Source of the DNA: Escherichia phage vB_EcoS_HASG4 | Length of the DNA stretch: 64,000 nt | Sequence record: NC_100331.1 | Reading direction: 5' to 3' (one strand) | Shown here: positions 40,697 to 41,530 of the stretch, in pieces | How positions within the stretch are numbered: the stretch's first letter is position 1 | Layout: the number at the start of each line of letters is the position of its first letter | Notes under the pieces: generated by a model | Databases searched by the model: none | Seen by the model: only the letters and a program-made list of their open reading frames with translations | Told to the model about the DNA's origin: nothing | Program-made: the position numbers and the translations under genes

Positions 40697-41198
40697 TTTA
40701 AGTATTTTTAAGAACTCTCGTAAAAACTCTTAAAAATACAGACGATACCGGGAGAGTCATAAGTCTCACTCATTAAGTATTTCAAGACAAAATACAGTAA
40801 CGTCTATTATTTTCCAGTTTAAGTCAAGGTGACTTAGTGGTTATGTCCTGCGGTATACTGAGGACTCGGTTAGGTTAGGGTCATGACTCCCCACTTTTTT
40901 GCTGCTACTCAACAGGAGTTATCGCGAATTACCTGTGCTATTGTGCACCATTAGTGGCATCTCTCATGCCAGCATTTCCCACTTTGTGGATAGTTTGAAA
41001 AACTACTCCGATATGGAGAAAGAACTTCACTATCCTAGAATACCTTCTAAAGTTCTTCTTTAGCCTGGACATAGTTAAATCGTAATAAAACTATTCAGCA
41101 GACTGGTTGGTTAGTCTGGAACCAACTACCGCGTGGTTTAGGCAGTGCGCAACTAACCTCGGAAGCTTTTACATTAAAAGCACCAGTTATCCAGTTCT

Positions 41199-41270
41199 TA
41201 CCGACCGTAGGATTCGAACCTACATCTTCCACCAGTTACGGCTTGATAATACCGTTTATACTAGATCGGC
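41199..41270 (-). ncRNA. tRNA-like element without encoded CCA
   Basis: T-arm GTAGGTTCGAATCCTAC; acceptor GCCGATC/GGTCGGT; anticodon arm not resolved. Confidence 0.35.
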
Positions 41271-41530
41271 AGTGTTACTACATAAGTGATTTCCACACCC
41301 CACTATCAATAAATTAGAGAAGAGTTTAGGGGAGAGGTTTCAGACGCCTCATTTTACACGTTCTAGCCACTAACCGGGATTGCCGCCCCCTGTGTACTAG
41401 TTTTACAACTAACCCACCGACTCTATTCAATGCGCTCCGGTTGGGATTCTGCACTCAGCGTAATCGGCTCGCTGTTCTCTAATTTATGAATATATTATAC
41501 AGAATTTATAAGCATTTAGCAAATAAATTT

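What the first reader, a model, noticed from the sequence alone, without database searches (positions are those of the whole stretch)
40700..41530. ~0.8-kb ORF-poor region downstream of a promoter cassette
The region between tRNA-Arg and gene 41531-41965 has no credible ORF, contains a tRNA-like T-arm element, several hairpins and a DnaA-like site TGTGGATAG (~40985), and a promoter cassette at ~41478 points into it. It is a candidate structured RNA or origin-like element.
Basis: seen in the sequence. Interest (0 to 1): 0.45.

Follow-up and report, generated by a model that had tools for sequence, protein, structure and literature searches.

The report
Phage T5 RNAX structured non-coding RNA
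The ORF-free 0.8 kb is the counterpart of phage T5's annotated but uncharacterised "RNAX" gene: a large folded non-coding RNA with a built-in tRNA look-alike that is conserved across T5-like phages, and it is not a replication origin or a hidden protein gene.

Summary
The window is a T5-like phage, 100% identical to Escherichia phage EASG3. The described features are all present at 40697-41530. They belong to a minus-strand unit: a sigma-70 promoter (41522-41494), about 790 nt of ORF-free RNA, then tRNA-Arg.

The T5, BF23 and DT571/2 records annotate the homologous stretch as rnaX, "stable RNA with unknown functions". Rfam finds only tRNA similarity.

Comparison across five lineages (Tequintavirus, Epseptimavirus, Klebsiella Sugarlandvirus, Pectobacterium DU_PP_V, Serratia Slocum) shows a modular folded RNA:
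- A 13-bp helix starts at the inferred +1.
- A tRNA-like domain sits on a 12-bp stalk formed by its own flanks. In that stalk 10 of 12 pairs show compensatory changes.
- A conserved multi-helix 3' core carries an invariant GGAGUCAUGACC loop.
- A nearly invariant 17-bp hairpin closes the RNA.

The tRNA-like part keeps its acceptor, D and T arms. It never has a normal anticodon loop, so it is a mimic and not a decoder.

Small ORFs are broken in relatives. The "DnaA box" is a chance-level, non-conserved match that forms one strand of an RNA stem.

Verdict: a real structured RNA, already annotated, with function unknown. In genomic context and layout it resembles the GOLLD and ROOL RNAs of phage tRNA islands.

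The parts
41494..41522 (-). Sigma-70 early promoter, homologue of T5 'P16-17': -35 TTGCTA, 17-nt spacer, -10 TATAAT.
   Evidence: 10 of 12 consensus matches. Annotated as a promoter in T5. The cassette is repeated elsewhere in the window.
41475..41487 (-). Inferred transcript 5' end (+1 at 41487) and 5' arm of helix P0 (AUAAAUUAGAGAA).
   Evidence: It pairs with 41309-41321. The arms are kept in all variants whether they enclose 18 or 218 nt. Compensatory changes occur in the AKFV33 type, DU_PP_V and Slocum. The +1 position is inferred from T5 promoter architecture; the T5 record starts rnaX 8 nt further downstream.
41456..41474 (-). Hairpin M1 (CAGCG-AGCCGAUUA-CGCUG).
   Evidence: Conserved in the Tequintavirus long form, Epseptimavirus and Klebsiella phages. 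Absent from T5 itself.
41322..41455 (-). Variable 5' domain M2, enclosed by P0. It contains the conserved motif UGAAUAGAGUCGGUG.
   Evidence: Deleted in T5. The promoter-to-M3 distance ranges from 37 to about 480 nt among relatives.
41309..41321 (-). 3' arm of helix P0 (UUCUCUAAUUUAU).
41291..41303 (-). Invariant, apparently single-stranded G-rich segment GUGGGGUGUGGAA (M3, 5' part).
   Evidence: Invariant or nearly so in all five lineages. No pairing partner was identified.
41277..41290 (-). 5' strand of the 12-bp stalk that carries the tRNA-like domain.
   Evidence: It pairs with 41182-41195. 10 of 12 pairs show changes on both sides and 97.9% of cells are paired across 12 distinct sequences; slid controls give 0-2 such pairs. 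A G.G 1x1 mismatch is invariant and a C.C mismatch is nearly so.
41198..41271 (-). tRNA-like domain: 8-bp acceptor stem with a recurrent U5.U68 mismatch, D arm with GG, T arm GGUUCGAAUCC, and an anticodon arm reduced to 3 bp plus a 6-nt loop.
   Evidence: T stem and anticodon stem covary. Orthologues are called Ser(ACT), SeC(TCA), Leu(TAG) or nothing at all. The anticodon arm is a 6-bp/3-nt-loop hairpin in DU_PP_V, a long hairpin in Sealy, and the whole domain is replaced in UTK0010.
41182..41195 (-). 3' strand of the stalk (ACUGGAUAACUGGU).
41165..41181 (-). Hairpin M5 (GCUUUU-AAUGU-AAAAGC).
   Evidence: Covaries: GCUUA/UAAGC, GCUUC/GAAGC, GGUUC/GAACC.
41067..41164 (-). Module M6, lineage-specific. 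It holds the hairpin GUUGGUU..AACCAAC and the conserved CUAAACCACG.
   Evidence: No compensatory change was seen, so support is weaker.
40986..41066 (-). Module M7: hairpin UAGAA-GGUA-UUCUA, plus a long stem GAUAGUGAAG..UUCAAACUAUC enclosing CUCC..GGAG.
   Evidence: 19 pairs, 3 of them compensatory, in 16 sequences including Klebsiella phages. T5 has GGUAGU/GCUACC.
40806..40985 (-). Conserved 3' core (Module B). Closing helix GUGG/CCAC (40979-82 with 40837-40), hairpin B1 (40955-71), long hairpin (40903-50), hairpin with an invariant loop containing the palindrome GUCAUGAC (40880-87), hairpin B2 (40845-65), and hairpin AAGUCA-CCU-UGACUU (40821-35) followed by UAAACUGGAA.
   Evidence: 42 pairs, 98.6% of cells paired, 7 pairs with compensatory changes; slid controls give 0-2. 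The core motifs recur in Klebsiella phages and DU_PP_V with different peripheral hairpins; Slocum keeps the GUCAUGAC loop.
40740..40805 (-). Variable module M9.
   Evidence: Replaced by unrelated sequence in the Daisy/bastian group. The predicted fold has no comparative support.
40702..40739 (-). 17-bp AU-rich terminal hairpin (GUAUUUUUAAGAG..AGUUCUUAAAAAUAC), the likely 3' boundary of RNAX.
   Evidence: Almost invariant in sequence in Markadamsvirinae, Sugarlandvirus and DU_PP_V, but absent from Serratia phage Slocum. 96% of cells pair on the sense strand against 86% on the antisense. In Klebsiella phages and SB9 it is followed by ORFs, not by tRNA-Arg.
40622..40696 (-). tRNA-Arg(UCU), co-transcribed, 5 nt after the hairpin. 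It is a neighbour and probable processing signal, not part of RNAX proper.

Best explanation
The region is the orthologue of bacteriophage T5 rnaX. It is an early, sigma-70-transcribed, non-coding RNA of about 790 nt, made from the minus strand together with tRNA-Arg.

Shown here: it is a modular, highly folded RNA with four parts.
1. A helix beginning at the inferred first transcribed base closes a dispensable, length-variable 5' domain.
2. An L-shaped tRNA mimic sits on a 12-bp stalk made by its own flanking sequences. The mimic keeps the acceptor, D and T arms but has no usable anticodon loop.
3. A conserved multi-helix 3' core carries an invariant loop, GGAGUCAUGACC.
4. A 17-bp terminal hairpin follows.

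Inferred:
- The base-paired 5' end and the terminal hairpin make the RNA resistant to decay, which would fit the 'stable RNA' label.
- RNase P cleavage at the 5' end of tRNA-Arg, and possibly at the tRNA mimic, defines the RNA's ends.
- The mature RNA acts in trans as a scaffold or decoy that presents a tRNA shape to tRNA-recognising host or phage factors. This would fit a tRNA island that is known to take part in defence and counter-defence.

I put the identity and architecture at about 0.9 and the scaffold/decoy function at about 0.3. The overall confidence value blends the two.
For: Identity:
- 100% match to a T5-like phage.
- The T5 RefSeq record annotates the homologous 40848-41566(-) as misc_RNA rnaX, 'stable RNA with unknown functions', next to promoter P16-17 and tRNA-Arg. 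The same label appears in BF23 and DT571/2.

Transcription: a promoter lies directly upstream and no terminator-like site lies before tRNA-Arg.

Non-coding: no ORF is conserved.

Structure:
- Stalk: 10 of 12 pairs compensatory, 97.9% paired.
- tRNA-like domain plus adjacent hairpin: 12 compensatory pairs.
- 3' core: 7 compensatory pairs, 98.6% paired.
- M7: 3 compensatory pairs.
- P0 arms are retained around inserts of 18-218 nt, with compensatory variants.
- Strand specificity: 94-99% paired on the sense strand against 84-90% on the antisense.

Depth of conservation:
- 536 phage records match.
- A covariance model built only from E. coli, Salmonella and two Klebsiella phages scores held-out Sealy at 137 bits, Serratia Slocum at 121, Pectobacterium DU_PP_V at 88 and UTK0010 at 87.

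tRNA mimic rather than tRNA: the anticodon arm is non-canonical and differs in every lineage, and ARAGORN's identity calls are inconsistent.

Context: T5 tRNAs are documented counter-defence factors (text in PMC10644984; PMC11464382).
Against: - No RNA-level data were available here. The 'stable RNA' label is a database annotation for which I found no paper.
- Parts are dispensable in nature. T5 lacks the 5' domain. UTK0010 lacks the tRNA-like body. Slocum lacks the terminal hairpin and much of the core. This weakens any model that needs the whole molecule.
- The sequences come from about five lineages, so the covariation counts are partly inflated by shared ancestry.
- Single-sequence folding energy is only modestly better than shuffles (z = -2.4).
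- The stalk would leave the tRNA mimic's ends base-paired, which is not ideal for RNase P. Processing at that site is therefore uncertain.
- Nothing tested here bears directly on a decoy or scaffold function.
Confidence: 0.62

Rival explanations
1. It is a cis-acting precursor or spacer. The region would be a structured leader whose hairpins and tRNA-like element serve only as RNase P, RNase E or RNase III processing and stability signals for maturing tRNA-Arg and the downstream SPFH mRNA. It might also be chopped into several small stable RNAs, like the RNAI, RNAIII and RNA1-3 species annotated elsewhere in the T5 tRNA island. There would be no function for the whole molecule.
For: - It is co-transcribed with tRNA-Arg, with no intervening terminator.
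- T5 annotates seven other small 'stable RNAs' between tRNAs.
- Modules are gained and lost independently.
- The stalk flanking the tRNA-like domain resembles rRNA-type processing stems.
Against: - In Klebsiella phages and in SB9 the terminal hairpin is separated from tRNA-Arg by ORFs. RNAX is therefore conserved independently of that tRNA.
- BF23 keeps rnaX although it is reported to lack tRNA-Arg.
- Single-stranded motifs and loops such as GUGGGGUG..GAA and GGAGUCAUGACC are invariant across phage subfamilies. A mere spacer would not be expected to keep them.
Confidence: 0.22
2. It is a graveyard of decayed tRNA genes: a pseudo-tRNA plus neutral junk left by rearrangements and homing-endonuclease traffic in the tRNA island.
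For: - The tRNA-like element has a degenerate anticodon arm and is annotated 'tRNA-Pseudo' or 'tRNA-OTHER' in several records.
- HNH endonuclease genes are inserted nearby in relatives.
- The region is mosaic.
Against: - Compensatory changes maintain the T stem, the acceptor stem, the stalk and at least 5 other helices.
- The fold is recognisable between phage subfamilies that otherwise share only about 40 nt by BLAST.
- Endonuclease genes insert only in variable parts or outside the modules.
Confidence: 0.03
3. It is an origin-like or other DNA-level element, such as a DnaA-dependent origin, a packaging or nicking signal, or a protein-binding palindrome.
For: - A DnaA-like 9-mer lies at 40985-40993.
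- The palindromes GTCATGAC and the 17-bp inverted repeat are conserved at the sequence level, which is also what a DNA-binding site would show.
Against: - The 9-mer is a single one-mismatch match at chance frequency and is not conserved.
- The helices rely on many G.U pairs that would be A.C mismatches on the other strand (155 G.U cells).
- The first 13 transcribed bases take part in the structure.
- The window's genuine DnaA-box clusters are at 5.7 and 9.5 kb.
Confidence: 0.03
4. It encodes one or more small proteins, as some genome records annotate ('hypothetical protein' x3-4).
For: ORFs of 42-60 aa exist on both strands. Several GenBank records call CDSs here.
Against: Every such ORF has stops or frameshifts in T5, LVR16A or the Daisy/bastian group, even though the nucleotides are conserved. 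Substitutions fall in compensating stem positions, not at codon third positions.
Confidence: 0.02

Closest known systems
Bacteriophage T5 rnaX ('RNAX', T5s08), annotated in NC_005859/AY543070; also BF23 (AJ604530) and DT571/2
   Same: It is the same locus by sequence: 94% identity over the shared 82%, with T5 lacking the 5' domain. It is also the same locus by synteny, lying between a YqeY-like gene with promoter P16-17 and tRNA-Arg plus the SPFH gene.
   Different: The window's copy is the long form, with a 150-nt 5' domain that T5 lacks. It lacks T5's 87-nt insertion near the AAGUCACCUUGACUU hairpin. The database entry gives no structure, boundaries or function, and I found no paper on it.
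GOLLD and ROOL RNAs (large ornate RNAs of phages and prophages, usually next to tRNA islands)
   Same: - Phage-encoded, more than 500 nt, with many covarying helices.
- Located in or next to a tRNA island and probably co-transcribed with tRNAs.
- Like GOLLD, it has a conserved 3' region, a variable 5' region and a tRNA(-like) element between them (PMC12286853, PMC5737381).
- An invariant palindromic loop could in principle mediate loop-loop contacts.
- Function unknown.
   Different: No match to any Rfam model except tRNA, even at E-value limits of 10 on the window and 1 on five relatives. The host range differs: virulent Demerecviridae of enterobacteria. No evidence of oligomerisation was obtained. 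The resemblance is one of context and layout, not homology.
Genuine phage tRNAs (Rfam RF00005)
   Same: The 74-nt element has a cloverleaf-like acceptor, D and T arms and scores above the Rfam tRNA threshold (36.8 against 29 bits).
   Different: The anticodon loop has 6 nt, or is replaced by other hairpins. The predicted identity changes between orthologues. No CCA is encoded. Its ends are locked in a 12-bp stalk.
tRNA-mimic modules inside larger RNAs: bacterial Y-RNA-like YrlA, the tmRNA tRNA-like domain, and MALAT1 mascRNA (from my own knowledge)
   Same: A tRNA-shaped module is embedded in a longer non-coding RNA, with a conserved elbow (D and T arms) and no decoding function.
   Different: No Rfam hit to these families. 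The topology differs from YrlA, where the anticodon side continues into the Ro-binding stem; here the acceptor side continues into the stalk. No Ro, SmpB or other partner is known.
T4 stable RNAs C and D ('species 1 and 2') and the other T5 stable RNAs (RNAI, III, IV, RNA1-3)
   Same: They are stable RNAs of unknown function encoded inside phage tRNA clusters, and some have tRNA-like features (for T5; T4 from my own knowledge).
   Different: Those are 70-170 nt. RNAX is about 5 times longer and multi-domain. I found no sequence similarity to other parts of the window's tRNA island beyond the promoter cassette and the T-arm. The covariance model finds one copy per genome.

Membership tests
T5 rnaX (RNAX) locus | Sequence homology to the annotated T5 misc_RNA rnaX. 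| tested here: met
   94.4% identity over 82% of the query to NC_005859 40848-41616, with features 'rnaX: RNAX | promoter' under the match.
T5 rnaX (RNAX) locus | Same genomic position: downstream of promoter P16-17 and the YqeY-like gene, upstream of tRNA-Arg and the SPFH gene, minus strand. | tested here: met
T5 rnaX (RNAX) locus | Accumulates as a stable RNA in infected cells. | not testable with these tools
   There is only the database note 'stable RNA with unknown functions'. No paper was found.
tRNA (functional, decoding) | Cloverleaf with a score above the Rfam gathering threshold. | tested here: met
   36.8 bits against 29. ARAGORN calls a tRNA.
tRNA (functional, decoding) | A 5-bp anticodon stem with a 7-nt loop, and an anticodon conserved among orthologues. 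| tested here: not met
   The covarying stem has 3 bp and a 6-nt loop. The arm is a 6-bp/3-nt-loop hairpin in DU_PP_V, a long hairpin in Sealy, and absent in UTK0010. Orthologues are called Ser(ACT), SeC(TCA), Leu(TAG) or nothing.
tRNA (functional, decoding) | A free acceptor end that can be processed and aminoacylated (3' CCA encoded or added). | tested here: inconclusive
   No CCA is encoded. Both flanks are base-paired in a 12-bp stalk. Processing and charging cannot be tested here.
GOLLD / ROOL RNAs | Match to the Rfam covariance models. | tested here: not met
   No hit at E<=10 on the window region, nor at E<=1 on five relatives.
GOLLD / ROOL RNAs | Large (>500 nt) multi-helix RNA, phage-encoded, adjacent to a tRNA island. 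| tested here: met
   About 790 nt. At least 6 helices have compensatory support. There are 23 tRNA calls in the window and the region sits at the promoter-proximal end of the island.
GOLLD / ROOL RNAs | Homo-oligomeric RNA-only assembly (nanocage). | not testable with these tools
   The only lead is the invariant palindromic loop GUCAUGAC.
DnaA-dependent replication origin | A cluster of conserved DnaA boxes. | tested here: not met
   There is a single one-mismatch box. The window total of 28 compares with 19.3 +/- 4.2 expected. The box is not conserved in T5 or other groups and lies in a covarying RNA stem.
Small-protein gene | An ORF conserved in relatives. | tested here: not met
   All seven ORFs of at least 25 aa are interrupted or frameshifted, or replaced by unrelated sequence, in at least one lineage. 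One of them (41486-41611, +) only overlaps the promoter and the neighbouring gene.
Y-RNA-like (YrlA) / tmRNA tRNA-like domains | Match to the Rfam models; a Ro-binding or SmpB-binding module. | tested here: not met
   No Rfam hit other than tRNA. ARAGORN finds no tmRNA.

The most novel reading that the evidence does not exclude
RNAX may be the founding member of a third class of large, ornate RNAs associated with phage tRNA islands, alongside GOLLD and ROOL. It is conserved across Demerecviridae and is built around a tRNA mimic held on a covarying stalk, plus a compact core with an invariant palindromic loop. On this reading it acts in trans, either as a tRNA-shaped decoy or scaffold in the phage-host conflict over tRNAs, or as a self-associating RNA particle. 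It would not be a mere processing spacer. Because it sits in T5 and E. coli, it would be the first genetically tractable model for this kind of RNA.
Probability: 0.35. Interest if true: 0.75.

Novelty: already known. Interest (0 to 1): 0.55.

Why it matters
The gene itself is not new. T5, BF23 and DT571/2 records have carried 'rnaX, stable RNA with unknown functions' for about twenty years. Most of the roughly 500 later T5-like genome records leave the region blank or fill it with spurious small ORFs and 'tRNA-Ser(ACT)', 'tRNA-Sec' or 'tRNA-OTHER' calls.

What this analysis adds is that RNAX is a deeply conserved, multi-domain folded RNA with a tRNA mimic, and that it has no Rfam family.

The function of large structured RNAs next to phage tRNA islands (GOLLD, ROOL) is an open question. 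Those RNAs occur mostly in poorly tractable hosts. An analogous RNA in T5 and E. coli could be deleted, mutated, probed and imaged with standard tools. The T5 tRNA island is already known to counter tRNA-targeting defences (PARIS, retron Eco7).

In practical terms, the covariance model and motif set would let annotators stop mis-calling a tRNA and small ORFs here.

Tried and rejected
1. Rfam at permissive E-values, on the window region and on five relatives, gave only tRNA hits. I therefore rejected GOLLD, ROOL, YrlA, tmRNA, ribozymes, riboswitches and introns as family assignments.

2. The search for related loci with the neighbouring YqeY-like protein returned only close relatives.

3. A metagenome and IMG/VR scan with the 22-nt motif AGTCACCNTGACTNNAACTGGA recovered more T5-like contigs, all from the same lineages. 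It also hit about 7 distinct unrelated sequences, roughly the number expected by chance. This did not extend the family.

4. tblastn with the SPFH protein led to T4-like phages and to a non-T5-like Proteus phage with no RNAX. The Aeromonas phage PhAER-4 reached through the endolysin has no RNAX-like gap and no model hit.

5. Literature searches for RNAX, T5 stable RNAs and T5 transcriptomes found nothing on this RNA.

6. I looked for a pairing partner for the invariant GUGGGGUG..GAA segment. The candidate CCAC motifs are themselves invariant, so covariation cannot test the pairing.

7. I tried to align the 3' core of Klebsiella phages, DU_PP_V and Slocum base by base with the E. coli group. 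Only the core motifs could be matched by eye, so no joint covariation count was made for them.

8. Internal repeats: apart from the promoter cassette and the T-arm, nothing in RNAX recurs elsewhere in the window.

9. A hairpin register that I first set one base off gave poor pairing. I corrected it.
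Full report
**Source and orientation.** The window is a T5-like phage. 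The interval 40600-41600 is 100% identical to Escherichia phage vB_EcoS_EASG3 (Tequintavirus) and 97-98% identical to many Salmonella and E. coli T5-like phages. All genes here, and the 23 tRNA calls between 27.8 and 41.3 kb, lie on the minus strand. The region must therefore be read as a minus-strand transcript. I use p = 41530 - coordinate + 1 for RNA-sense positions.

**Observation check.**
- There is no ORF longer than 60 aa.
- A tRNA-like element lies at 41198-41271. ARAGORN calls it 'Ser(ACT)', and Rfam tRNA gives 36.8 bits against a threshold of 29.
- The promoter is TTGCTA-17-TATAAT at 41522..41494 on the minus strand, pointing into the region. It is one copy of the T5 early-promoter cassette repeated through the window.
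- TGTGGATAG is at 40985-40993.
- No terminator-like site separates the promoter from tRNA-Arg.

**It is already annotated in T5.** In the T5 reference genome the homologous stretch 40848-41566(-) is misc_RNA rnaX (T5s08), 'stable RNA with unknown functions'. It is flanked by 'promoter P 16-17' and tRNA-Arg. BF23 and DT571/2 records carry the same label. T5 lists seven further 'stable RNAs' in the tRNA island. EASG3's own record annotates only 'tRNA-Ser(act)' here. Other records show nothing, 'tRNA-OTHER', 'tRNA-Sec', 'tRNA-Pseudo', or up to four hypothetical proteins. I found no paper dealing with RNAX. Rfam has no family for it: permissive scans of the window and of five relatives return only tRNA.

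**Not coding, not an origin.**
- Each ORF of at least 25 aa in the interval is interrupted by stops or frameshifts, or replaced by unrelated sequence, in T5, LVR16A or the Daisy/UTK0010/bastian group.
- The DnaA-like 9-mer is one of 28 sites with at most one mismatch in the window, against 19.3 +/- 4.2 expected.
- It is changed in T5 (GTTGGTAGC) and absent from the Daisy/bastian group.
- It is the 3' strand of an RNA stem, GAUAGU/ACUAUC, that becomes GGUAGU/GCUACC in T5.
- The perfect DnaA boxes of this genome cluster at 5686-5767 and 9485-9566. That is the known non-coding border region of T5-like phages (PMC10644984).

**Anatomy and comparative support.** BLAST finds similarity in 536 phage records, down to 60-80% identity. 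The region is mosaic, with conserved modules separated by lineage-specific or length-variable ones.

1. *Helix P0.* From T5 promoter architecture, +1 is the A at 41487. The first 13 nt (AUAAAUUAGAGAA) pair with UUCUCUAAUUUAU at 41321-41309. Both arms are kept whether they enclose 18 nt (T5) or more than 200 nt. Compensatory variants occur in the AKFV33 type (AGAUG/CAUCU), in DU_PP_V and in Slocum.

2. *Invariant segment.* A segment GUGGGGUG..GAA follows.

3. *The stalk.* The sequences flanking the tRNA-like element pair with each other: 41277-41290 with 41182-41195. This gives a 12-bp stalk containing a G.G 1x1 mismatch that is invariant and a C.C mismatch that is nearly so.
   - Across 12 distinct sequences from five lineages, 10 of 12 pairs show changes on both sides and 97.9% of cells are paired.
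   - Structures slid by 1-3 columns give 0-2 such pairs.

4. *The tRNA-like domain.*
   - It keeps an 8-bp acceptor stem with a recurrent U5.U68 mismatch, a D arm with GG, and a covarying T stem (GUAGG, GCAGG, GUGGG).
   - Its anticodon arm is 3 bp with a 6-nt loop in the E. coli/Salmonella and two of the Klebsiella phages, a long bipartite hairpin in Sealy-type Klebsiella phages, 6 bp with a 3-nt loop in DU_PP_V, and a bulged stem in Slocum. The whole body is replaced in UTK0010 while the stalk stays.
   - ARAGORN calls the orthologues Ser(ACT), SeC(TCA), Leu(TAG) or nothing.
   - It is therefore a conserved tRNA-shaped module, not a decoding tRNA and not a decaying pseudogene.

5. *Downstream hairpins.* A covarying hairpin follows (41165-41181). 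Then come lineage-specific modules, M6 and M7, with further supported stems.

6. *The conserved 3' core (40806-40985).* It folds into a junction closed by GUGG/CCAC, with four internal hairpins and one 3' hairpin.
   - It has 42 pairs, 98.6% of cells paired, and 7 pairs with compensatory changes, against 0-2 for slid controls.
   - Its unpaired motifs are invariant: GGGAAA, the loop GGAGUCAUGACC (which contains the palindrome GUCAUGAC), CAUAACCAC, and UAAACUGGA.
   - These motifs recur in Klebsiella phages and DU_PP_V, where the peripheral hairpins are entirely different; Serratia phage Slocum keeps the GUCAUGAC loop.

7. *The terminal hairpin.* A 17-bp AU-rich hairpin (40702-40739) is almost invariant in sequence across Markadamsvirinae, Sugarlandvirus and DU_PP_V, though not found in Slocum. 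In Klebsiella phages and SB9 it is followed by ORFs rather than tRNA-Arg. It therefore belongs to RNAX, not to the tRNA leader.

*Strand specificity.* On the three alignments, 94-99% of cells pair on the sense strand but only 84-90% on the antisense strand, because of 155 G.U cells. This places the structure in the minus-strand RNA.

**Distribution.**
- A covariance model of the stalk and tRNA-like domain scores held-out sequences very highly: Sealy 137 bits, Serratia phage Slocum 121, Pectobacterium phage DU_PP_V 88, and UTK0010 87. It was built from 16 E. coli, Salmonella and Klebsiella phage sequences.
- It finds one copy per genome.
- DU_PP_V belongs to a different subfamily, Mccorquodalevirinae. 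By BLAST it shares only the roughly 40-nt terminal hairpin. It nevertheless has the same order of parts: promoter, P0, G-rich segment, stalk, tRNA mimic, hairpin, core with GGAGUCAUGACC, and terminal hairpin.
- RNAX is thus old within Demerecviridae.
- The metagenome scan added only more T5-like contigs.

**How it probably works.**
- *Shown:* the RNA is non-coding. Its first 13 inferred bases are base-paired. It is a string of evolutionarily maintained helices with invariant loops and linkers. It contains a tRNA mimic.
- *Inferred about stability and processing:* a paired 5' end and a long terminal hairpin are classic protections against 5'-end-dependent RNase E attack and 3' exonucleases. This fits the 'stable RNA' label. 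RNase P cleavage at tRNA-Arg, 5 nt after the hairpin, would create the 3' end in T5-type genomes. Whether the tRNA mimic is excised is open, because its ends are locked in the stalk. After any cut the stalk could still hold the two halves together.
- *Inferred about function:* the features kept in every lineage examined are the tRNA elbow and acceptor on a stalk and the GUCAUGAC loop; the rest of the core and the terminal hairpin are kept in all but Slocum. That points to recognition by a tRNA-binding factor and to a tertiary, quaternary or protein contact. T5 tRNAs are known counter-measures to tRNA-targeting defences. Nearby genes encode a cREC_REC domain, which Pfam describes as a cyclic-phosphate processing receiver domain, and a weak YqeY/GatB-tail-like domain.
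- *My preferred reading:* a trans-acting tRNA-mimicking scaffold or decoy (about 0.3). The main rival is a purely cis-acting processing and stability leader, or a precursor of several small RNAs (about 0.2).

**Comparison with known systems.**
- By homology and synteny this is T5 rnaX.
- By kind it most resembles GOLLD and ROOL. Those are phage RNAs of more than 500 nt beside tRNA islands. GOLLD has a conserved 3' region, a variable 5' region and sometimes a tRNA in the linker, and both form RNA-only assemblies through kissing loops (PMC12286853, PMC5737381).
- RNAX fails the membership test, since it does not match their Rfam models. The claim is analogy only.
- It is not a functional tRNA, not YrlA or tmRNA, not an origin, and not a protein gene.

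**Novelty and score.** The feature is already known as an annotation, and I file it that way. The comparative structure appears undescribed in the searchable literature and in Rfam. That includes P0, the stalk-mounted tRNA mimic, the core with its invariant palindromic loop, the terminal hairpin, and the spread across Demerecviridae. I score interest at 0.55. It is not surprising that T5 has an RNA here. However, a conserved ornate RNA of 0.6-1.3 kb, with unknown function, in a model phage is a good handle on an open problem.

Noticed in passing
window 5686-5767 (+) and 9485-9566 (-): Five perfect DnaA boxes (TTATCCACA) and further near-perfect ones, in two tight clusters. This corresponds to the repeat-rich non-coding region at the first-step-transfer border described for T5 and BF23.
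   Followed up: partly
window 42659-42976 (-) and 41531-41965 (-): The 105-aa protein matches Pfam cREC_REC ('cyclic-phosphate processing receiver domain', E = 4e-15). The gene immediately upstream of RNAX has a weak, sub-threshold YqeY (GatB-tail-like) match. Neither link to RNAX was tested.
   Followed up: no
window 40814-40835 (RNAX motif AGTCACCTTGACTTAAACTGGA); loci L056/L060, L059/L074, L062/L068/L078, L063, L069, L075: The 22-nt hairpin-plus-tail motif also occurs in unrelated viral and metagenomic contigs, mostly in AT-rich, intergenic-looking places and sometimes just before a ribosome-binding site. The number of hits is about what chance predicts, so it may mean nothing.
   Followed up: partly
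L002 (T5), RNA-sense about 567-660 of its RNAX; L070 7364-7472: T5 and one metagenomic relative carry an 87-nt insertion flanked by direct repeats of the AGTCACCTTGAC(T/A)TAAACTGGA motif. It looks like a duplication or a small insertion element.
   Followed up: no
L012 (SB9) 977-1486 and 2073-2552; L016 (26175V) 1055-1564; hits H55, H56: ORFs lie inside the variable parts of RNAX or between its terminal hairpin and tRNA-Arg in several relatives. They are annotated as putative HNH endonucleases in phages 2-3 and mar003J3, but only as hypothetical proteins in SB9 and 26175V. The conserved RNA modules are left intact.
   Followed up: partly
L022 (T5 26.5-42.1 kb); window ORF-free gaps such as 30131-30691: The T5 reference annotates seven other 'stable RNAs with unknown functions' (RNAI, RNAIII, RNAIV, RNA1, RNA2, RNA2H, RNA3) between tRNA genes. 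The window has comparable unannotated gaps that were not examined.
   Followed up: no
window 28831-28917 and 34304-34386: ARAGORN reports unusually long tRNA-Thr (87 nt) and tRNA-Asn (83 nt), where T5 annotates 75-78-nt genes. These may be mis-set boundaries or insertions.
   Followed up: no
L084 (Serratia phage Slocum) 6040-6095 and 6130-6190: In Slocum the GUCAUGAC-loop hairpin is followed by a U-run, so it looks like an intrinsic terminator. A second T-arm (GGTTCGAATCC) lies just before tRNA-Leu. The RNAX 3' end may differ in this lineage.
   Followed up: no
L083 (Proteus phage P59) 1050-4412: A close homologue of the SPFH protein that follows RNAX in T5 sits two genes downstream of an RtcB RNA ligase gene in an unrelated phage.
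   Followed up: no
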